From Naegleria gruberi (taxonomy: Eukaryota): a stretch of 64,000 bases of DNA. A program made the position numbers and the translations under genes. Every line of letters begins with the position of its first letter. Positions within the stretch are counted from its first letter, which is position 1. The notes beneath the pieces were generated by a model. It was given only the letters and a program-made list of their open reading frames with translations, was not told the DNA's origin and made no database searches. Positions 17,099 through 45,525 of the stretch are shown here, piece after piece. Location: assembly GCA_000004985.1 (NCBI GenBank), contig GG738917.1. One strand, 5' to 3'.

Positions 17099-18850
17099 AT
17101 GCCAAAAACCTCATCTCGTCAATCAGGAAAATCCCACCCCAATGACTGCAACGCAGAGCTGAGTCCCATTGCTTGCAAGGCCTGCAAAAAAGCACATAAA
17201 AAAGTAAGTAATCCATTGCCATTATTATTATTGAAACATGCAACTTTTAAAGTGTGTAAGTATTCATCATCATCTCATCATCGGAATTAATATACTGAAT
17301 AATAGGATAGGAAAATGGGGAAATGCTCCCGATGTTCAAAGAAAAATCTTGAATGTCATTATGATACAGTGGATAGGAGAAGAAGATCTGAAAATCAACA
17401 AATTCAAACCGATGCAAATAGTAGTGGAAATGACAGTTCAAATCAATCACTTTCGGAATATTCCGATGATCATCAGCTTATCAAACACTCTGTGAATGGT
17501 AAAACCATTGAAGTTTACATTTACGTTACCAGTATGGGAATTCCTTGTTTTAAACCTGAAGAATATTACAAATTGTTACAATGCAATATGGAAGAATTAA
17601 ATAAGAATCGAAGAGATCAACTAGCTCTATTACTTTCTATCCAAACTATTTGTGAACAGATATTTGGATTCCCTGATTTGGCTGAACAAACTGCCAGAAA
17701 ATGTAAAAAGGTTGTCATGCATTTGTATGATGATTTTTCAAATCCATTTGTGGCTTGCACTTTTTTGAATATGGCCACATATTATTCAGCTGAAGGAGAT
17801 ATTGAGATGGCCAGAGGTTACATTGCTTTGGTGGAAAATTTTATTGATAGAATGAAACTGACCTCACAATTATTCGAATATGAACTAATTCCTAAATTTA
17901 ACATTGAATTTTGCATAACTTCAATGAAAATTGTTACTCCCATAACGTCTTTGGCATGCTGTGATTCCTATCCAATACCTGACGTTCCAATTCTCACGAA
18001 AATCTTTGGACTCCTCTCATCAATGCACGTTTTTCATCCAAGTTATGAAATTGAATTTTGGAATAATAATTTGAGTCCTACCATTGAGAATAGAATTAAT
18101 AATTTGGAGATTTTCTCAGTCCTTGCCGCCATATATGAGAACAAGTTGACAGATGTTTCAAAGAAATTAATGGAAGTCACCAAGGAAGTCTTCTTCAATG
18201 GATTGAATATTATACGACTGATATTGCATGCCAGTAAGATTGATAATTCTAAATTGTACGCAAATACTAGATTATTGGAATTCTATGCATTGAAAGTGAG
18301 CAAATTATCAGAGAATAATCTCTTCATTTACATGACTCCATATGTCATGTCATTTGTTCTGTCATCCATTAAGGTAAACTTTGAAGTTTGTAAAATGATT
18401 GATCGAGGAGAAAGAGTAAATTTACAGACCACACTCGTATTGAATAATGAAATGTTTGAAAATTCGACTGAAGTTGTGGATTACTATTCAGTGCTGAATA
18501 GAGATTTGGAAACACTCAAACAACTTTCAAAGAGATACAGATATATCACCACTATTTATAATGAAGTGAATACATTCTTGAATAATAGAGCTAACATGTG
18601 TCAATCGAACATTCAGTTGGATGGGTTGACTTCCTCTCCTGGAAGTTTGAGTTCACTATTTGATCCACCTTCTAACATTTACTCAGAGATGAGGAATTTC
18701 TTATCAACCTTTGGAAAATCCAGGAATTTACTCAAAACAACAGATCAAGAAAAACCAATTTGTGACAGAATTACTACTGAGGAAGAGTTTTGTAATTATT
18801 TTGGATTTGAACCAGCAATGGATGATCAATTTCCACCAAACAATAGATAA
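17099..18850 (+). CDS. Protein with an N-terminal Cys-rich Zn2Cys6-like (fungal-type binuclear cluster-like) motif and a large C-terminal domain of unknown function. Two exons: 17099-17203, 17306-18850.
   Basis: Exon 1 ends ...CKACKKAHKK with a GTAAGT donor at 17204. Acceptor aatag at 17305. Exon 2 continues in frame DRKMGKCSRCSKKNLECHY (C-x2-C...C-x2-C-x6-C-H). The exact Cys spacing is non-canonical. Confidence 0.55.
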
Positions 18851-18955
18851 ACATCATAATATTAATTGTGTTTTTCTATCAATTTAATTGAATTTCCAGA
18901 AGTACTAGAATTACATTTGAGTGAAGCAACAATAAAATAAAAAGTAATTTCTGAA

Positions 18956-19287
18956 TGCGTCGACCGGGAATTGAACTTCCTTTTTAGGAATATTATATTT
19001 AATATTTAAATAGTTTACAATATTGAATAATGAAACAACGTGTAAATGTGTTTAAGTAGGGTACCCGTGAGTCGATTCACCATATTTGGAAGGTACTATT
19101 CAACAACAACAACAACAATAAATGTATTTAATATTAATTATTTGATACCGGGAGTCGCTTTTCCTTTTTGGGAATGTTGTATGTGAGTTATCAACTGGTC
19201 TACGCATTTAAATTTTTTTAAAAAATAAAAAAAAATGAAATTGGGTAACGGGAGACGGTTTACTATATATGGAACATTCAAACATAC
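18956..19287 (-). repeat. Segment holding the tRNA-Gly 3' end (T-loop/acceptor 3'/discriminator, 18956-18976, minus) followed by an array of four degenerate ~30-35 bp units resembling tRNA 3' ends or B-boxes (about 18957, 19059, 19145, 19244).
   Basis: The minus strand of 18956-18976 reads GTTCAATTCCCGGTCGACGCA, i.e. tRNA positions 53-73. The units share CCGGGA..(10)..TTCC..TTTTTGGGAA on the plus strand. Their reverse complements resemble GGAA..TTCAATTCCCGGT. Confidence 0.55.
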
Positions 19288-19345
19288 AATTGAACCCGGG
19301 TCACGGCGATGGCAACGCCGTATTCTACCACTAAACCATCGACGC
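19288..19345 (-). tRNA. Truncated tRNA-Gly(GCC), positions 1-60 only (A-box, anticodon arm, T-stem 5' half and T-loop). The 3' T-stem and acceptor are missing at this site.
   Basis: Minus strand: GCGTCGA TG GTTTAGTGGTAGAATAC GGCGTTGCCATCGCC GTGAC CCGGG TTCAATT, then unrelated sequence. The anticodon loop TTGCCAT gives anticodon GCC. The matching 3' end lies 311 bp downstream (18956-18976) with an 8-nt overlap GTTCAATT. Confidence 0.6.
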
Positions 19346-19443
19346 TTCTTATTAAGGTTCTAAGGCTCTATCATTTCACACAACCAGAAACCTGATACTC
19401 CAAAAGTTTATTACAGCTGATCGTTCAATGACTCATTACCACC

Positions 19444-20632
19444 TTATTGCAAACTCTTTCCACCAACACATTGGAATCCTAACTTGACACATCTAGGACA
19501 AGGTTTTTCATCAGTACAGAAAACGTGAGCTTTTCTACATTGATCACAGGGTGACTTAACTTGATTTCTTCTCTTTTTCTTCGTTACTTCTCCCTTATCA
19601 TTGCTACCGTTCATTATAACCGTGACGTGTTTTCCTGTAATCAAGTTTGTAAACTTGATTGGCATTCCGTTTGGAATAAAGTTGAATAAATCACAATCTC
19701 TTTTAAGAAATTTCTTATCTTCCTTATTCTCAATCATTGCAGGATTCAAATTGTATATCATGGCTTCATAAAGCTTTGGGGAAATGATATCTCTCTTAGA
19801 AACCAAAAGTGGATGGGAATCAACTGTCGCCAAGACCTCTCCTTCAATAATTGGGAATCTGATTTCACTCAAGAAATAGTCCAAATATTGCAATCTATTT
19901 TCCTTATCGTGCTCAATCCATCTCATCAAGGACTTGAATAAATTTCCTTCACTACCTATTAATTTGAGTTCCTCTCCAGCAAGCATGACCTTCAAGTCTT
20001 CAATTGATAATTTAACAAAATGTTCACTTTCACAAACAGCATCAAAATTAGCAGAAATCTTAGTAAGAAGAGTTTTCTTTAAAGAGTTGATTTCCTTAAA
20101 TTCTTCCAGATATTGTGAGCAATTTTCCAAAAGAAGGAATGAATCACCAACAGCAGCACTTCTCATAATTTTAAGAGCCCTACCCTCAATTTCTTGCATT
20201 CCATAGGTATGAGCAAAAGTGTACAGATCCATAAATTTATCCACTGCATAATCCTTTGTGGAACCAAAATAGACAACCTTTAAGAAAATTTCCAATCCTA
20301 AATCGGTCACCTGATCCAATACAAGCTCCATGCCAATCTTGAATTCTGGAATAAAAAGAAGTTCCTTCAGTTTTGTACTCCATTTTCCGACCTATGATGA
20401 ATCATCATGATGTTCGGATCATCACACAATTTAAATATTTGATTTTACAATAACACACACATACCATGGCTCTAAGAGCTGGAAATTTCTTTCCATTCTG
20501 ACTGATCAATACACAATCAGAAACTTCTTCATCCAAATACAAGGATGAAATCATGGACATGGTTTTTTCTGTACATTCAATGTAGTTGTTGGAACGGGTT
20601 ATGGAATTACCTAATGTGGAAATTGAATTCAA
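19444..20632 (-). CDS. BTB/BACK-domain protein with a C-terminal Zn2Cys6-like cysteine cluster. Two exons: 20465-20632 and 19444-20391.
   Basis: Exon 1 encodes ...DCVLISQNGKKFPALRAM (BTB N-terminus) with a GTATGT donor. Acceptor catag at 20392. Exon 2 in frame: VGKWSTKLKELLF...MELVLDQ... The C-terminus reads CDQCRKAHVFCTDEKPCPRCVKLGFQC, which is C-x2-C-x6-C-x5-C-x2-C-x6-C. Confidence 0.6.
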
Positions 20633-20889
20633 TTTTGAAATTGAATATAAGTGGATTGTTTCAATAAATTTTCAAAATTGAAATTGAGATTATTTACAAT
20701 ATTTTATTGAATATTGATGAAATTAAATAAATAGAATATTTCACATAGTTTCTTGTTAGAAAAGATAGTCAATTGAACTTAAGATTTATTACATATCAAC
20801 CAGACACTCAATCACCATCAAAGAAAACAAAGAAGAATAACGTTATTGATAGTGATACTGAAGATTTCGATTGTAATATTAAAGATATT

Positions 20890-21200
20890 GATAATTGGGT
20901 ATAGGGAAACGGAATTTCCTAATGGGGAAAGTCACACAATAAATTAAATTATTTATTCATTAATGATGATGTTCACAAACTTTGAATTAACACATTATGT
21001 ACATGATGAAACAATTCAAACTTTAAACATTGAACTTTAACCATCGGGTAACGGATTTTAATACATGTACTAGTATGTTGACAATTTGATAATTTGTCGA
21101 CGCACATAAATTTAAATAAACAAAATTAACAAGATTTTAAACAAAATCCTACATAGAGTTGGAGAACGGGAAATGAAATTCCCAAATTGAAATTTAGAAA
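20890..21200 (-). repeat. Second array of degenerate tRNA-3'-end/B-box-like ~30-35 bp units (about 20896, 21043, 21154), adjacent to the second tRNA-Gly fragment.
   Basis: gggtatagggaaacggaatttcctaatggggaaag, cgggtaacggattttaatacatg and ggagaacgggaaatgaaattcccaaattg resemble the units at 18957-19277 (for example gggtaacgggagacggtttactatatatggaac). Confidence 0.45.
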
Positions 21201-21238
21201 CAACTATTCATTTCACAATAATTCATACTATCAAAATG

Positions 21239-21296
21239 AATTGAACCCGGGTCACGGCGATGGCAACGCCGTATTCTACCACTAAACCATCGACGC
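21239..21296 (-). tRNA. Second copy of the truncated tRNA-Gly(GCC) positions 1-60. It is identical to 19288-19345 and shares 13 bp of 5' flank (CCTTAATAAGAAG on the minus strand).
   Basis: Plus-strand aattgaacccgggtcacggcgatggcaacgccgtattctaccactaaaccatcgacgc is identical to the copy at 19288-19345. Both are truncated after TTCAATT. The flanks diverge beyond the shared cttcttattaagg. Confidence 0.6.
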
Positions 21297-22037
21297 TTCT
21301 TATTAAGGTAATAAGGCACCATATTTTAATAAAGAAGAACCCCAAAAGTGTTTTTATGCTTTAATAACAATTTGAATGATTCATGAATACCTGCGGTGGG
21401 AGGTAACATTGGCGTGGCTACCTCAACAACTAAAAAAAGCGCCATAATCACCTACAAGTTGGAGGTACCCTCAGATTGACATGGCTCTTAAATTTGTGAT
21501 AATGGTTTCGAGTAATTCTTACTCCAATAGTTCACATCATCCAAAAACTAATACTAGTAATTTTTAATACCATCATTTCCTTATTGAAACATCATCCTAT
21601 CATTCACCAACAAATTGAAGTGCATTCTTCATTCTTTTCTTACTCAATGGCCAACAAAACGATGGCTAATTGTTCAGTTTCCAACAACACACAATTGAAT
21701 GACCATAAAGAAACCTCAAGCTAATACTTTCCTTTTTCAATTCATATTCCCATCATCATACAAAATGATGAAATATCACATGAAATATTCAGTGAAAGAA
21801 GTAATCGTTAGACACAAATATTCAATTTAGAAAGGAGATGATTCACATCAAAAGAAATTACCATTCCTCATATGAATGCATTTGGAAATAATGTAAACCA
21901 CAACGGTTTTAAATCAAGCCACAACAGCAACTGATGGAAGACATGTCCACTCAATTCTTCTAGACATACAAAAAGTTCATCCACATAACAACAACACCTG
22001 ACATCCACCAACTGACACATTTCAATAATACACAAGG

Positions 22038-31727: not shown

Positions 31728-34558
31728 CTACTCTGAAATCAAGCAAGTTGCGTCGCTCCATCTTCCACTTGATGGTCTCAAAGTCCATTCAGAGAATCTT
31801 TTGAATGAATCTGCACAAATTAATTGGGTAATCTGCATTTGTAATTTATCAAATAAGTCTAATTGTGCATATCCATTCTTGATTTTTTCATATTCACTTT
31901 CGTAGACTGCATGGGATATATTAAGGAAGGTGTTTGAAGATTTTTCGAGATACTTGCTGATTATTTCCTGTTGTTTCTTTCCTCTGTCTATGGTTGTACT
32001 GGTTGACTTGTATGCTCGAACTTCTTCCAAGAATGCTAAATTCTCTGCACTTTTTTCCTTCTCCAAGAAGATTCTAAATAATGAAAGGAGAGTTGGATTA
32101 TTGAACATGTTTTCAAACTCTTCAATGTTTCTCGCCTCATCAACAGTTCTTCTTCTGGTTAGGGCAGTTCTAATATCCTTTTTTTGCTCCGTTATTTTCA
32201 TGACTAGAACGTAGGTATCGACTGGTTTACCACAAGAATTTGAAACTTTTGACTTGGTAATGTTGATAGAGACTGGCACAGGTGTACTCAGTGAAGAGAG
32301 CAAATTAGTCTCCCATCTTGTCTCAGAAATTAATAATTCATCAAATTTTTGTAGTAAATCCTTAAAGGGTAGCTTTTCTTGTAAGTATTGGACTATATTA
32401 TAGATTTGAGAGGAATTCTTTGCTTTTCTGGCTATTTTAGACTCGAAGGAGGTATTGGCAGATATGATTGAACCGTCACAAGCGTCTATGAAAGCTACAA
32501 GCTCTGGTACAGAATTCATTACGCTTCTATTCTTATGTTCCTCAATAGAAGCCCTTTCCAACAGCTTTTTGATTGATTTGTTGTCCTTTTCCAATTTCTT
32601 TTGATTTAGATCCAATACATCGAGCATTCCATTAATGAAAAAGGTTAGCTCTCCAACTTCATCCTTATATTTCGATATTAGTCGTTTTGTAAAGTCAGAA
32701 GTCTGAATAATTGATTTAACAAATTTTGATACTACCAAAATACGTCTAATTACAAACAGCTCTATAAAAAAGATCATTACTACTAATGATACAAATATAA
32801 ATAACCACGATACAAAAATACCCAAAAAACAAGATTCCCAAATGATTACAACGTACTCTCTTACAACATCTGATCTTAGGACAACAGTATATTCCCCATA
32901 AAAATCAGGAATCATATGATATGAAACAAGCCTCTTTCTTTTTGAAATTATGCTTGGAAGGTCTTTGTCTTGAGTGCAAACACGAAAATCAGTCTTGAGA
33001 TCATCGAGCAGAACTGTATTTGAATCCAAAGCGAAAACCTTGCTTTGACCATACTGATATCTAACCTCTATTTCATTCGATATTTGAAGAAATACATTTG
33101 AGGCATTTCCTTCAAATGATGTACCAAGTGATTTTCCTAAAAGAGACAACTCTGATTGATTTCTCAAATTGAATACAGTGATACACGAGGATGTAAAGGA
33201 AGAGATTGGTTCTAGTCTATCCAAAGTAATGTACCTTCCAAACATTAGTACATATGGCACACCAAATGTTTTCATAATGGAAATCATGAGAATGTGAGTG
33301 CTGTTAGTGTGAGGTTCAGCAGTCCCAAGAAATATTATTGGATTCTCAACATTAATGTATCCAGATTTGATAATTTCATCCTGTAGATTGTTCTTATTAA
33401 TATCCAAAGGTAAAGTCAAAACCTCTTTAGGAGGTTTTATAGGCTTTCCATTATGACATGCAGAAAGGTATGTTAATTCACTCGAATAATTGTAAATTCC
33501 AACAATATCAACTCCAACAATATCCAATCTTGGACAATTGAATAACTCTCCAAATATTGATATTGTTCCTCTTCAGTAGTGGTACTCTCTTTGAAATCTA
33601 TAGCTCTATTATGTCCATACTCGTATAACTTTGATTCTAATTTGTGCATCTTATTGAGAAATGTAACAGTTCCTGAAATACCCATCGATTGACCTTTTGT
33701 TGCCTCAACATTATCTGAGGCATATGCAGAGAAAATTGCAAGTAGTCCAAACAAGAAAATTGTCAGTAGTACCACAAAAACAAATAGACCACTCCAAACA
33801 CAAACTCTCAAATTCATAAACATATCCTTCCAAATGTTTTGTTGCTGTTTAATCCTCTCTTGATATTTGGCAATGAAAGCAGTGATAGAATACTGCTTAC
33901 TCACCTCATCAGAGCTTGGATTACTTCTCGGTGTCAATGTCGAAGGAGCAAACAAAGAAGGAGATGCTACCTTCTCAATCAAGAGAGGTCCCACAGAGAC
34001 TGGGGATTGTGGCGAACCCACTCTAAACATTATTTCTTGTTGTCCATTCATACTTTGATTATTATTACTATTATTATTGAATTTGTTAGTGTTGGGTGTT
34101 GTTGGTTCATCTCGACTGCTTTGAATAGTTAGAGGTGATGAAACATTTCTCCTCCTCGTGTAAACATCGACCATTCCTGATTGGATGGGTGTTGAAGAAG
34201 AAAGAGGTTCCACTGAAAAACCAAACATCAAGTCGCTTCCTGTGGGTGATGATGAAGTTAGAGGATTCTGTTGTTCCTCTTCTTGTTGTACTTCTATGAG
34301 AATGTTTGTTCTTCCATATGATGATGATGATAAGGATGAAACCAAATCTTGTTGTTGTTGTTGTTGAATAGCATGCAATATATTACAACTTGTGGGTGTT
34401 GATGTTGAACCCGAAGCACACTCCAATATTATATTATTAATATTAATTGTTGTAGCCTGAACATTGTCCATAATATTATCATCTCCACCAATGCTGCTAC
34501 CACAACCATCATCATCAACTCGACAACAACAATCTGTCTGCTTTCCTTGTTCAGACAT
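31728..34558 (-). CDS. Two-TM sensor-type membrane protein. It has a long low-complexity cytoplasmic N-terminus, TM1, an extracellular domain of about 230 aa, TM2, a HAMP domain, a possible PAS-like segment and a C-terminal RGS domain. The two ORFs (33473-34558 and 31728-33527) are joined by a frame change near 33480-33530.
   Basis: TM1 VWSGLFVFVVLLTIFLFGLLAIF. TM2 VVIIWESCFLGIFVSWLFIFVSLVVMIFFIELFV. HAMP-like FVKSIIQTSDFTKRLISKYKDEVGELTFFINGMLDVL. RGS-like FRIFLEKEKSAENLAFLEEVRAYK...IISKYLEK...LQMQITQLICADSFKRF. Removing a 38-nt GT...AG segment (gtgaattaacatacctttctgcatgtcataatggaaag) connects ...EFTIIR to PIKPPKEVLTLPLD in frame. Confidence 0.65.
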
Positions 34559-37290: not shown

Positions 37291-37387
37291 CCCAGTGTGG
37301 TCTAATGTTAAGATAGATGACTTTGTGATGAGGTATAATCTACCTTGTTAAATTCATCAGATCCAGGTGCAAGTCCTGGCATTGGGT
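37291..37387 (+). tRNA. tRNA-like element with a 26-nt insert in the anticodon loop: either an intron-containing tRNA (anticodon UUG, Gln, if the canonical 37/38 intron position applies) or a tRNA-derived pseudogene.
   Basis: Cloverleaf: acceptor CCCAGTG/CATTGGG (one G-T pair). D-stem GTCT/AGAT. Anticodon stem GATGA/TCATC separated by 33 nt. Variable loop AGAT. T-stem CCAGG/CCTGG with loop TGCAAGT. Non-canonical points: no GG in the D-loop, G at position 55, and T at position 37. Confidence 0.35.
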
Positions 37388-43831: not shown

Positions 43832-45525
43832 ATGGATGGACCACAGTGCAATACCAAGTTGATGGTTTTTGTGGGTTTTTGGATTGTGTTGATGGTGATT
43901 ACTGTTTGTTGCTATGCAGAAAACGAAAGCGATGGAACCTATGCTGAAATTGGACTTTCGATTGGAAATACGAATTGGAGAGCTGCTGTTATGGTAAATG
44001 GCAGTTTGGAATGGATTGTGGATAGGAATGGAAATGTAGATCATCCCTCTTTTGAAAATATAAACAAGATTATTGTGAGCAATTATAAAATAATTAAAAG
44101 CAGAGATGGTTATTTATTGGAATCGAATAACAACATTTTTGAAAGAAATGGAACAGTTTATTGTAAAGTTAAATTAGATGATGGAATTGAAAAGGAAATG
44201 ACACCAGAGGAAATTTATTCGGATATTCTACATGATGTGAAAGAACTTGCTTTCCAATATTTGAAACGAAACATTACACATATTTTCCTTTCAGTACCAG
44301 CATATTTTAAACAAACTCAAGAAGATTATATCATACGAAACGCAGCTTCAAAACACAATTTAACAATTGTAAGATCTGTTCGAGATCCAATCATGGCTGT
44401 ACTAGCTCAAGACCATTTCCAAAAGATCAATAACAATTATACGAACGATTCAAACGATGAAAGAACTTTTTTAGTTGTGGATTTGGGAATTAGATCATTG
44501 GCTTTAAATATTGTAAATGATGATTTTGGATTTTATGAAATACTTGCTTCAGAATCCTATGGTCAATTGGGAACTGAAAGATTTCATATGAAACTGAGAG
44601 AATTATTCGTAAAAGAGTTCAAGAAACAACATTTATTGAATGAACAATCAAATATTTTGGAAAATCAACAATTAATGAATTATTATTAAGGCAAGCTGAA
44701 AAATCAATGATTTCCCTTTCAAAAGAAAATTCTGTGCGAGTGAATATTCCATCTTTATTCGATGGAAAGGATTTCACATTCGAATTGACCAGAGAAATAT
44801 TTGAAAATCAATGCCAAGACCTACTTGAACAAATAGCAGCCTCTGTTTTTCGGCTATTCAATCGATCAGATGTATTCGCAGAAGAAATTTCACAAGTGAT
44901 TCTTTCTGGAGGTGGAACACTCAATCCTTCAATAAGGAGTGCAATTATTGATCGATATTTCAAAGATGGAAATGTTTCGAATATTTTACAAGCATCAACC
45001 ATAGGTGCAGCTCTTCAAGCAGCTGTAGTATATGAACCATTCCAAACTGTTTCTTTAATACTGGCACCATTTTCTCTTGGGATTGAGAATTCTGACAGCC
45101 AGTTAGTGAAAATCATTGAAAGAGGAACAGTTCTGCCAACTGTCAAGAAGATGGTCTTTTCTAGTGAAAGAGGATTTCTTGATTCTGTTGATTTTTGTAT
45201 ATTTGCTGGTGATAACATTTATGAAATGGAAAAGAATATTCAATTAGGTCAATTGACCCTGGAAGGAATTGAGTTGACTAAAAAGGGGAAAGCTCAAATT
45301 GAAGTTTCTTTTGAATTAAGTGATAGTTTCATTCTCAATGTTACTGCCACTGATTTAACAACCAAAGTAAAGAGTGAAAAGATAATTTCTTTGGAAAAGT
45401 TAGAAAGTAATAGGGAACTCACTAACAAACTTGAACAGGATGCTACGAAAGATGGAGAAGAGAAGGAAATAAGAAAATTACTCCATACTTATAATTCACC
45501 AAGTGTTCTCCATGAAGAATTGTAA
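43832..45525 (+). CDS. Divergent ER-type Hsp70 family protein: signal peptide, degenerate nucleotide-binding domain, SBD-beta, and a C-terminal HEEL. The two ORFs (43832-44689 and 44707-45525) are joined by a 1-nt frame shift at about 44645-44690.
   Basis: Hsp70 motif positions: IGLSIGNTNWRAAV (cf. IDLGTTYS), TPEEIYSDILHDVKELAFQYL, FLSVPAYFKQTQEDYIIRNAASKHNLTIVRSVRDPIMAVLA, FLVVDLGIRSLALNIV (cf. DLGGGTFD), ILSGGGTLNPSIRSAI, ASTIGAALQAAVV, PFSLGIEN...LTLEGIEL...AQIEVSFELSDSFILNVTATD (SBD-beta). Ends SVLHEEL. The frame of ORF2 is open back to 44644 and aligns with Hsp70 ...LRTACERAK. Confidence 0.7.

What the first reader, a model, noticed from the sequence alone, without database searches (positions are those of the whole stretch)
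19288..21296. Two identical tRNA-Gly 5' halves truncated at the same nucleotide, each beside an array of degenerate B-box-like units
The fragments at 19288-19345 and 21239-21296 (minus) are identical over tRNA positions 1-60 and over 13 bp of 5' flank (CCTTAATAAGAAG). Both stop after TTCAATT and diverge immediately outside. Each lies next to a series of units of the form ggg(t)aacgggaNacgg..tt.c....tgggaa (18957, 19059, 19145, 19244; 20896, 21043, 21154). An identical breakpoint in two copies argues for a propagating unit: a tRNA-derived SINE-like or MITE-like element, or recurrent site-specific insertion. It does not look like random decay. Both fragments retain the A-box and most of the B-box, so they could still bind TFIIIC and act as Pol III or insulator sites flanking the BTB/Zn-cluster gene (19444-20632) that sits between them.
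Basis: seen in the sequence. Interest (0 to 1): 0.6.

Follow-up and report, generated by a model that had tools for sequence, protein, structure and literature searches.

The report
Insertion splitting Naegleria tRNA-Gly genes
Two neighbouring glycine tRNA genes of the amoeba Naegleria gruberi are interrupted at the same nucleotide of the T-loop by related non-coding repeat blocks, and one block is absent from a near-identical strain, so this is a site-restricted insertion that inactivates tRNA genes and not a truncation.

Summary
The window is Naegleria gruberi. Two tRNA-Gly(GCC) fragments (positions 1-60 plus 13 nt of flank) are identical and stop at the same base. Copy 1 is therefore a whole gene split by a 311-bp block flanked by an 8-bp direct repeat, GTTCAATT, which is the T-loop.

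A metagenome contig 98.9% identical to this locus carries the same gene intact. Four intact copies of this tRNA from relatives have no units downstream of them.

The "B-box-like units" are internal modules of the block. They resemble the block's own right junction with the tRNA, the tRNA 3' end and its 3' flank. As B boxes they are no better than random sequence.

Copy 2 carries a diverged, related block and has no recognisable 3' end.

Best reading: an old, non-coding, tRNA-3'-derived repeat block is copied into, or lost from, the T-loop octamer of tRNA-Gly(GCC) genes. Whether a site-specific transposase/reverse transcriptase or homologous recombination does the copying is unresolved. The 71-bp SINE/MITE idea is not supported. 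It looks like a new variant of tRNA-gene-targeted insertions, and the evidence rests on only two copies.

The parts
19288..19345 (-). tRNA-Gly(GCC) copy 1, 5' part (canonical positions 1-60, 58 nt)
   Evidence: Exact 58-mer, two copies in the window, 0 expected. Identical to the intact genes in L001-L004.
18977..19287 (-). 311-bp non-coding block (28% G+C) inserted in the T-loop of copy 1; absent from the orthologous site in L002
   Evidence: The L002/window alignment is 98.9% identical over 1300 nt, with a single 319-nt gap at this position. G+C content.
19288..19295 (-). Left copy of the 8-bp direct repeat GTTCAATT (tRNA positions 53-60)
   Evidence: Overlap of the 5' and 3' tRNA parts.
18969..18976 (-). 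Right copy of the 8-bp direct repeat GTTCAATT
18956..18976 (-). tRNA-Gly copy 1, 3' part (positions 53-73), perfect
   Evidence: Unique 21-mer in the window. Equals the 3' end of the intact genes in L001-L004.
19237..19279 (-). Unit U1 (TTCC-N6-xGTA, T-loop-like, CCCGTTACCCA)
   Evidence: nhmmer. 71% identical over 76 nt to the V3 region.
19220..19235 (-). T9 and T6 runs on the tRNA strand, read as Pol III terminators, inside the block
   Evidence: Read from the sequence. Pol III would be expected to stop here, so the 3' part would not be co-transcribed.
19136..19177 (-). Unit U2
19052..19095 (-). Unit U3
18962..18993 (-). Unit U4: the right junction (block end TTCCTAAAAAGGAA joined to the real T-loop and 3' T-stem)
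   Evidence: An HMM built without U4 finds it as the top independent hit, E=0.017 window-wide.
18927..19274 (-). 183-nt higher-order repeat: 19274-19113 matches 19091-18927. The second copy runs through the junction and the tRNA 3' end into the 3' flank.
   Evidence: blastn, 62% over 170 nt, E=3e-6.
18886..18897 (-). GGAAATTCAATT: near copy of the junction 12-mer GGAAGTTCAATT, 83 nt further downstream, in the flank outside the indel
   Evidence: about 0.93 such matches expected per 128 kb searched.
19346..19444 (-). Upstream flank of copy 1, homologous to 21297-21392 (13 nt identical, then about 70%)
   Evidence: Local alignment score 30 against a null maximum of 17.
21239..21296 (-). tRNA-Gly(GCC) copy 2, 5' part (positions 1-60). 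No recognisable 3' part follows.
   Evidence: Rfam 21.2 bits, below the cut-off of 29.
20888..21238 (-). Block downstream of the copy 2 break, with units V1 (21153-21195), V2 (21031-21072) and V3 (20888-20932). The right end is not defined.
   Evidence: Global alignment to insert 1 scores z about 2.4.
21297..21392 (-). Upstream flank of copy 2, paralogous to that of copy 1

Best explanation
Shown: both loci are glycine tRNA genes of Naegleria gruberi that have been inactivated by an insertion. In copy 1, a 311-bp AT-rich non-coding block sits inside the T-loop, bounded by two copies of the T-loop octamer GTTCAATT. Both tRNA halves are still perfect. A strain 98.9% identical at this locus has the gene uninterrupted. 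The block is built of about 83-101-bp modules arranged as a 183-bp higher-order repeat. Each module resembles the block's own right junction: TTCC-N6-GGAA, then a T-loop-like octamer, then CCCGG plus an acceptor-like tail and an AT-rich flank. The modules are about 40% diverged from one another.

Inferred: this is an old block involved in a young event. A pre-existing block was copied from another interrupted tRNA-Gly gene, not present in this window, into the T-loop octamer of a working gene. Copy 2, an old paralog 1.95 kb away, carries a diverged relative of the block at the same nucleotide and has lost its 3' part. Its perfect 5' part plus 13 nt of flank is best explained by gene conversion from copy 1, or by a recent one-ended event.

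How the block is copied is not settled. I put about 0.35 on homology-directed copying (ectopic gene conversion between tRNA-Gly genes, using the 58-nt and 21-nt tRNA arms). I put about 0.35 on an enzyme-driven site-specific element, either Dada-like DDE transposition or target-primed reverse transcription. The remainder goes to multi-step local array rearrangement.

Consequence: the T9/T6 runs inside the block would be expected to stop Pol III before it reaches the 3' part, so copy 1 probably yields no tRNA. Copy 2 has no 3' part at all.
For: Split gene and 8-bp repeat:
-.

Empty orthologous site:
- L002 aligns over 1300 nt at 98.9% with one 319-nt gap.
- The L002 organism's proteins cluster with N. 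gruberi proteins at 90% or more.

The intact gene sequence is the 5' part plus CCCGGTCGACGCA:
- Seen in four other loci, none of which has units downstream.

Units are confined to the two loci:
-.

Internal units resemble the right junction:
- An HMM built without U4 hits 18993-18962 at E=0.017.

Internal 183-nt repeat reaching into the true 3' flank:
- blastn E=3e-6.
- Module tails against the flank give p about 0.01.
- An in-register 12-mer lies in the flank.

Relatedness of the two blocks:
- U1/V3 are 71% identical over 76 nt, E=2e-4.
- The global alignment scores z = 2.4.

Paralogy of the two loci:
- About 100 nt of upstream flank is homologous.

Dead genes:
- Rfam scores of 21.2 and 18.8 bits against a cut-off of 29.
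- T9/T6 runs inside the block.

Target abundance:
- N. gruberi has 924 tDNAs.

Precedent for insertions inside tRNA genes without terminal inverted repeats, with apparent 8-bp duplications, target-like subterminal repeats and one-sided copies:
- Dada transposons, including in the protist Perkinsus (PMC3706591).
Against: - Only two copies were seen, and no donor copy was found.
- The rest of the N. gruberi genome could not be searched.
- There is no transposase, reverse transcriptase or recombinase among the 29 ORFs of 200 aa or more in the window.
- There are no terminal inverted repeats and no poly(A) tail. The 5' ends of the two blocks do not match convincingly.
- The L002 contig ends 6 nt past the tRNA. 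The 3' flank of the empty site is unseen, and the 6 nt that are visible differ slightly (TTCAAGA against TTCAGAA).
- Polarity is not proven. A precise deletion in the L002 lineage, through the 8-bp repeats or by conversion from an intact paralog, would give the same picture.
- Module homology to the host's own 3' flank is awkward for a foreign element.
- Cross-locus unit similarity is weak in leave-out tests.
Confidence: 0.6

Rival explanations
1. Purely local origin. The block is a degenerate tandem array made from the gene's own T-loop to 3'-flank segment. It arose by slippage or unequal exchange between the T-loop octamer GTTCAATT and its near copy ATTCAATT 83 bp downstream. Further unequal crossovers, deletions and conversions then rearranged it. 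The shared 'breakpoint' is simply the octamer at which such exchanges resolve. The L002 state is a contraction or an unexpanded allele. Nothing moves between loci.
For: - The modules resemble the T-loop, 3' end and 3' flank, including sequence outside the indel.
- A 12-mer lies in register, 83 nt downstream, in the flank.
- The higher-order repeat structure is typical of arrays that evolve by unequal exchange.
- The two loci are paralogs. Their flank identity (about 70%) is similar to the U1/V3 identity (71%), so the array could predate the locus duplication.
Against: - A simple tandem duplication keeps the perfect 3' end next to the 5' part and puts the decayed copies distal. The opposite order is seen here, so at least three steps are needed.
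- Old modules (about 40% diverged) sit between two perfect tRNA halves and a perfect 8-bp repeat. At 62% identity, 21 of 21 matches by chance has a probability of about 4e-5.
- The intact genes in L001, L003 and L004 show no array or flank octamer.
- Tandem Repeats Finder sees no array.
Confidence: 0.2
2. One reading: a tRNA-derived SINE-like or MITE-like element whose mobile unit begins with the 13-nt flank plus tRNA-Gly positions 1-60, used as a Pol III promoter head.
For: - The 71-nt head is identical in both copies and is followed by related modular sequence.
- The A box is intact and 7-8 of the 10 specified B-box positions are kept.
Against: - At copy 1 the head and its upstream flank are the resident gene's own. 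Both are present, with the same flank, in the uninterrupted ortholog L002.
- The perfect 3' end lies 311 bp downstream.
- Upstream homology extends about 100 nt beyond any plausible transcript start, which indicates a DNA-level paralogy of the loci.
- There are no terminal inverted repeats and no A-rich or simple-repeat tail.
Confidence: 0.04
3. A functional split or intron-containing tRNA. The block would be removed at the RNA level from the T-loop, which would explain why both tRNA 'exons' stay perfect around a decayed interior.
For: - Both halves are perfect (58/58 and 21/21) although the interior modules are about 40% diverged.
Against: - T9 and T6 runs on the tRNA strand inside the block are expected to terminate Pol III before the 3' part.
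- The 390-nt hypothetical precursor does not fold into a cloverleaf or a bulge-helix-bulge motif, and its stability is unremarkable (z = -1.8). The read-through transcript also folds unremarkably (z = -1.3).
- Copy 2 has no 3' part.
- A sister strain does without the block.
- The window's other tRNA has its intron at the usual place.
Confidence: 0.02
4. Ordinary pseudogene decay: two tRNA-Gly genes that happened to lose their 3' ends.
For: - N. gruberi has many tDNAs, including 41 called pseudogenes.
Against: - The break is at the same nucleotide in both copies.
- There are no substitutions in the 71 nt of either copy.
- The 3' end of copy 1 is intact downstream.
- Related repeat blocks sit at both breaks.
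Confidence: 0.01

Closest known systems
Dada DNA transposons (Kojima & Jurka 2013, PMC3706591; Kojima 2022, PMC8869645)
   Same: - They insert at one fixed site inside multicopy small-RNA genes, including tRNA genes and including tRNA-Gly in the protist Perkinsus.
- They have no terminal inverted repeats.
- Their target duplications are 6-7 bp and sometimes look like 8 bp.
- They carry short subterminal repeats that also occur in the target.
- Tandem insertions are known, as are copies flanked by the tRNA on one side only, which is what copy 2 looks like.
- They thrive in genomes with hundreds of tRNA genes.
   Different: - Dada elements are 4.7-11 kb and encode a DDE transposase. This block is 311 bp and non-coding, and no such protein is in the window.
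- No Dada has been reported from Naegleria or at a T-loop site in the papers read.
- This block resembles its host gene's 3' end and flank over tens of bases, not just a 7-9-bp motif.
Site-specific non-LTR retrotransposons and their SINE-like dependants (R2, Utopia, Keno, Mutsu, Dewa; PMC4640811; the remaining detail is from my own knowledge)
   Same: - Fixed insertion site in multicopy RNA genes.
- Precise 3' junction and variable, often truncated, 5' end. Block 1 starts 13 nt, and block 2 starts 46 nt, before the first TTCC-N6-GGAA motif.
- No inverted repeats.
- Short target duplication.
   Different: - No reverse transcriptase partner is known here.
- No poly(A) or simple-repeat tail.
- No known family targets a tRNA T-loop.
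Intergenic gene conversion among dispersed tRNA genes (concerted evolution of S. pombe serine tRNA genes, Amstutz et al. 1985; from my own knowledge)
   Same: - Short tRNA-length homology is enough to copy sequence, including internal insertions such as introns, between unlinked tRNA genes.
- It would give the same junction in every copy.
- It would explain the sharply bounded identical tract from -13 to +60 between copies 1 and 2.
   Different: - It has not been shown to carry a 319-bp heterology on a 21-nt right arm.
- It does not explain how the first interrupted gene arose.
Prokaryotic integrative elements at tRNA genes (tyrosine integrases that use the T-loop or anticodon loop as the att core; from my own knowledge)
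   Same: - Insertion inside the T-loop, bounded by a direct repeat of the core.
- The displaced original 3' end is left perfect at the far side.
- Tandem accretion leaves a ladder of degenerate tRNA-3'-like att copies.
   Different: - This is a eukaryotic nuclear genome.
- The gene is not restored at the near junction.
- No recombinase was found.
- The block is only 311 bp.
Extra B boxes downstream of Dictyostelium tRNA genes, and extra TFIIIC sites in yeast (from my own knowledge)
   Same: - Repeated T-loop-like motifs downstream of a tRNA gene.
   Different: - The units here match the B-box consensus no better than random sequence.
- They lie inside an insertion that is absent from intact genes.

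Membership tests
Dada superfamily (target-specific DNA transposons) | Encodes, or is a deletion derivative of an element that encodes, a Dada DDE transposase with zinc fingers | tested here: not met
   The block is 311 bp and non-coding. None of the 29 window ORFs of 200 aa or more has a transposase domain. Whether an autonomous partner exists elsewhere in the genome could not be tested.
Dada superfamily (target-specific DNA transposons) | Insertion at one fixed site within a multicopy small-RNA gene | tested here: met
   Two tRNA-Gly(GCC) genes are interrupted after the same nucleotide. There are only two cases.
Dada superfamily (target-specific DNA transposons) | 6-7-bp target site duplication (apparent 8 bp in some families) | tested here: inconclusive
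   An 8-bp direct repeat, GTTCAATT, is present at copy 1. Copy 2 has no right junction.
Dada superfamily (target-specific DNA transposons) | No terminal inverted repeats, but subterminal inverted repeats shared with the target | tested here: inconclusive
   There are no terminal inverted repeats. A TTCC-N6-GGAA motif lies 13 nt from the left end and at the right end. A 12-nt inverted match to the tRNA 3' end lies about 80 nt inside the block (I6), not at a fixed subterminal distance.
tRNA-derived SINE | The tRNA-related head is part of the mobile unit | tested here: not met
   The head and its flank at copy 1 are the resident gene. They are present in the uninterrupted ortholog L002.
tRNA-derived SINE | A-rich, simple-repeat or LINE-derived 3' tail; many dispersed copies | tested here: not met
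   The block ends ...TAAAAAGGAA, with no tail. Copy number in the genome is not testable with these tools.
MITE | Terminal inverted repeats next to the target duplication | tested here: not met
   The left end, GTATGTTTGAATG, and the reverse complement of the right end, TTCCTTTTTAGGAA, do not match.
Site-specific non-LTR retrotransposon or dependent retroposon | Reverse-transcriptase partner with matching 3' end | not testable with these tools
   There is no reverse transcriptase in the window, and the genome is not searchable here.
Site-specific non-LTR retrotransposon or dependent retroposon | Fixed 3' junction with variable 5' truncation | tested here: inconclusive
   The two blocks begin at different points of a module, 13 nt against 46 nt before the first TTCC-N6-GGAA motif. 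With two copies and weak alignment this is only a hint.
Non-canonical tRNA intron or split tRNA gene | Both exons co-transcribed, with a bulge-helix-bulge motif at the splice sites | tested here: not met
   T9/T6 runs lie inside the block. The predicted fold shows no such motif and has z = -1.8. Copy 2 lacks a 3' exon.
Extra B box / extra TFIIIC site | Close match to the B-box consensus GGTTCGANTCC | tested here: not met
   Units U1-U3 and V1-V3 match 5-7 of the 10 specified positions, the same as random window segments. Actual TFIIIC binding is not testable.

The most novel reading that the evidence does not exclude
Naegleria may harbour a small non-coding element that integrates by site-specific recombination at the tRNA T-loop octamer and carries a mimic of the tRNA 3' end. 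That would be a eukaryotic counterpart of prokaryotic tRNA-targeting integrative elements. Tandem accretion would leave the ladder of att-like junction copies seen here as units U1-U3, and the displaced original 3' end would be left perfect at the far side, as U4.
Probability: 0.08. Interest if true: 0.8.

Novelty: new variant of a known kind. Interest (0 to 1): 0.5.

Why it matters
If the block proves to be a family that enters only the T-loop of tRNA-Gly genes, it would be the first tRNA-gene-internal, site-restricted insertion described in a heterolobosean, and the first at a T-loop site among those I could find.

Its make-up is unusual: degenerate copies of the target's own 3' end and flank. 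That make-up bears on how target-specific elements recognise or mimic their targets. Alternatively, it bears on how insertions spread through tRNA gene families by conversion alone.

In practice, such split genes are invisible to tRNA finders. ARAGORN mis-called one copy and missed the other, and Rfam scored both below threshold. Counts of tRNA genes and pseudogenes in Naegleria may therefore be off.

The presence/absence difference between near-identical strains could serve as a strain marker.

Tried and rejected
1. Searching for more copies:
- The JGI metagenome scan for the tRNA 23-mer gave one contig with an intact gene.
- The viral and prokaryote-genome collections gave none.
- The N. gruberi reference contigs are not retrievable through the gene-position index.
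- A chimeric protein query was meant to fish out the copy-2 ortholog and ORFs across tRNA-Gly. It found only one N. gruberi paralog of the BTB gene.
- A full HMMER search with the ORF that runs through copy 1 found only ORFs over intact tRNA-Gly genes.

2. Modules as decayed whole tRNA-Gly genes (a tandem tRNA array): rejected. There is no similarity to tRNA positions 1-52 above chance.

3. Units as structured RNA or DNA hairpins: rejected. The folds are not better than shuffles, except for V3.

4. Units as B boxes: rejected.

5. A conserved flank or extra B box downstream of the intact genes in relatives: not found (L001 p=0.058).

6. Homology between the far 3' flanks of the two loci: not significant.

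7. Tandem Repeats Finder: silent, because the copies are too diverged.

8. A helitron, hAT or classical MITE reading of the ends: no TC...CTRR termini, no inverted repeats.

9. L005, a contig from the same sample as L002: it is a paralog, not the ortholog, and carries no tRNA.

10. A small RNA in the G+C-richer patch at 21385-21490: no support.
Full report
**Organism and setting**

The ORF at 17315-18850 is 100% identical to a Naegleria gruberi predicted protein on a 223-kb contig. The gene between the two fragments is N. gruberi XP_002670287.1, which has BACK and Zn2Cys6 domains. The window is about 33% G+C and gene-dense. N. gruberi is reported to have 924 tDNAs, 883 of them called genes and 41 called pseudogenes (PMC2888827 and its supplement).

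**Checking the observation**

The 58-nt sequence covering tRNA-Gly(GCC) positions 1-60 occurs exactly twice, at 19288-19345(-) and 21239-21296(-). None is expected by chance. The 13 nt upstream are identical, and an 89-nt stretch is 93% identical. After TTCAATT the two copies diverge at once.

Seven degenerate units lie downstream on the tRNA strand. Four are at spacings 101/83/100 and three at 142/122. A profile built from them finds nothing else in the 64 kb. Neither fragment is an intact tRNA. Rfam gives 21.2 and 18.8 bits against a cut-off of 29, and the ARAGORN call at 21226-21297 has a forced 3' end. No other tRNA fragment is in the window. The only good tRNA is an intron-containing one at 37291-37387.

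The exact 3' end of this tRNA, GTTCAATTCCCGGTCGACGCA (positions 53-73), lies at 18956-18976(-) and is unique in the window. That this is the true 3' end is shown by four intact genes of identical sequence:
- L001, from a JGI metagenome;
- L002;
- L003 and L004.

Copy 1 is therefore a complete gene split by 311 nt (18977-19287). The octamer GTTCAATT is present on both sides.

**The empty site**

L002 is a 1322-bp contig from ENA sample ERZ929261. That organism's proteins cluster at 90% or more with N. gruberi proteins. L002 aligns colinearly with window 20585-18952 at 98.9% identity over 1300 nt. The only large difference is a 319-nt gap, which equals the 311-nt block plus one octamer. In L002 the same BTB gene and the same upstream flank are followed by an uninterrupted tRNA-Gly.

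There are two caveats. The contig ends 6 nt after the tRNA, and those bases (TTCAAGA) differ slightly from the window (TTCAGAA). The direction of change, insertion here or precise loss there, is therefore inferred and not proven.

**Anatomy of the block**

- It is 28% G+C and has no ORF of note.
- It has no terminal inverted repeats.
- It contains T9 and T6 runs on the tRNA strand (19220-19235), which are expected to stop Pol III well before the 3' part.
- It consists of modules of about 83-101 nt, each ending in TTCC-N6-GGAA. That motif is followed by a T-loop-like octamer, CCCGG, and an acceptor-like tail (consensus).
- A profile built from the six units other than U4 finds the real right junction (18993-18962) as its best independent hit in the window, E=0.017. 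The internal units therefore look like copies of the junction between block and tRNA.
- blastn shows a 183-nt higher-order repeat: 19274-19113 against 19091-18927, 62% over 170 nt, E=3e-6. The second copy runs through the junction and the tRNA 3' end into about 30 nt of the true 3' flank, outside the indel.
- Module tails align to that flank with p about 0.01.
- A 12-mer, GGAAATTCAATT, lies in register 83 nt downstream of the junction 12-mer GGAAGTTCAATT.
- The modules are not decayed whole tRNA genes.
- They do not fold notably.
- They match the B-box consensus no better than random sequence.

**Copy 2**

Its downstream block has three units. V3 and its surroundings are 71% identical to U1 over 76 nt (E=2e-4). 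The blocks align colinearly only weakly (z=2.4), and leave-one-locus-out profiles give weak cross-hits. No tRNA 3' end is recognisable.

The two loci are old paralogs. About 100 nt of upstream flank is homologous at roughly 70% identity, with a score of 30 against a null maximum of 17. The homology starts right after the BTB stop codon at copy 1. Against that background, the 71-nt tract of perfect identity (-13 to +60) ends exactly where homology between an intact and an interrupted gene would end. That suggests gene conversion between the neighbours. A recent one-ended insertion would fit equally well.

**Interpretation**

These points are shown:
- Copy 1 is a split gene.
- The octamer is repeated on both sides of the block.
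- An uninterrupted ortholog exists.
- The block is modular and resembles its own junction, the tRNA 3' end and the 3' flank.
- A second, related block sits at the same nucleotide in a paralog.
- No such units lie behind the four intact genes.

This much is inferred. The modules are about 40% diverged, yet both tRNA halves and the octamer are perfect. At 62% identity, 21 of 21 matches by chance has a probability of about 4e-5. An old block therefore took part in a young event, most simply a recent copy-in from a donor outside the window.

Two copying mechanisms fit about equally well.

The first is homology-directed copying (ectopic conversion) between tRNA-Gly genes:
- It needs no enzyme of its own.
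- It gives the same junction every time.
- It agrees with the conversion-like identical tract.
- It agrees with the block's resemblance to the host gene's 3' region.

The second is a site-specific element:
- Dada transposons are the closest precedent. They insert inside tRNA genes, lack inverted repeats, make 6-7 bp (apparently 8 bp) duplications, and have subterminal repeats that are also found in the target. One-sided and tandem copies are known, and they occur in Perkinsus tRNA genes (PMC3706591).
- The different starting points of the two blocks within a module hint instead at 5' truncation by target-primed reverse transcription.

A purely local multi-step rearrangement of a flank-derived array remains possible. 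It gives the wrong order of perfect and decayed copies unless several extra steps are assumed.

**Rejected readings**

- A SINE or MITE with a tRNA head. The head is the resident gene and there are no inverted repeats.
- A T-loop intron or split tRNA. The block contains internal terminators, the predicted fold shows no bulge-helix-bulge motif, and copy 2 has no 3' part.
- Random decay.

**Limits**

Only two copies were seen. The rest of the N. gruberi genome could not be searched with these tools, and the public collections that could be scanned added only intact genes. No transposase, reverse transcriptase or recombinase is encoded in the window. Copy number, conserved termini and the direction of change therefore remain open.

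**Verdict**

This is a real, non-random feature, but it is an insertion and not a truncation. It is best filed as a new variant of insertions that target the inside of tRNA genes. The mechanism is unresolved. Interest is moderate.

Noticed in passing
window 37291-37387 (+): An intron-containing tRNA (Rfam 46.7 bits, 29-nt insert after the anticodon loop). ARAGORN in bacterial mode missed it. It has no unit-like repeats downstream. The isotype was not resolved.
   Followed up: partly
window 19444-19345 (-): The stop codon of the BTB/BACK-Zn2Cys6 gene lies only 98 nt upstream of tRNA-Gly copy 1 on the same strand. The mRNA 3' UTR probably runs into the tRNA fragment and the block.
   Followed up: no
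window 20977-21024: A spacer-less palindrome (24-nt arms, 75% complementary) inside the block downstream of copy 2. It gave a sub-threshold mir-753-like Rfam hit.
   Followed up: partly
window 19197-19208 and 21096-21104: Inverted copies of the tRNA-Gly 3' end lie inside both blocks: AATGCGTAGACC in block 1 and TGCGTCGAC in block 2. The first forms a 12-nt, 92% inverted repeat with the real 3' end plus 2 nt of flank (18954-18965). Significance is marginal (p 0.02-0.05).
   Followed up: partly
window 21385-21490: A G+C-richer patch of about 100 nt, just beyond the point where the copy 1/copy 2 flank homology ends, with a T7 run on the minus strand. It has no Rfam match, and its folds are no better than shuffles.
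   Followed up: partly
window 19101-19118 and 34327-34371: A (TTG)6 run followed by GAATAG inside block 1 recurs at 34327-34371 (78% over 46 nt). It is probably a coincidence of CAA/TTG microsatellites.
   Followed up: no
window 43832-45525 (+): An HSP70 homolog is split over two adjacent ORFs (43832-44689 and 44707-45525). This could be an intron or a frameshift.
   Followed up: no
L001 47-119 and 207-277: In a related metagenomic contig, tRNA-Ile(AAU) and tRNA-Gly(GCC) lie 87 nt apart. Both have a similar upstream motif (TAAGG..A.GAA just before position +1), which resembles the TTAATAAGAA upstream of the window's tRNA-Gly copies. It may be a conserved upstream Pol III element.
   Followed up: no
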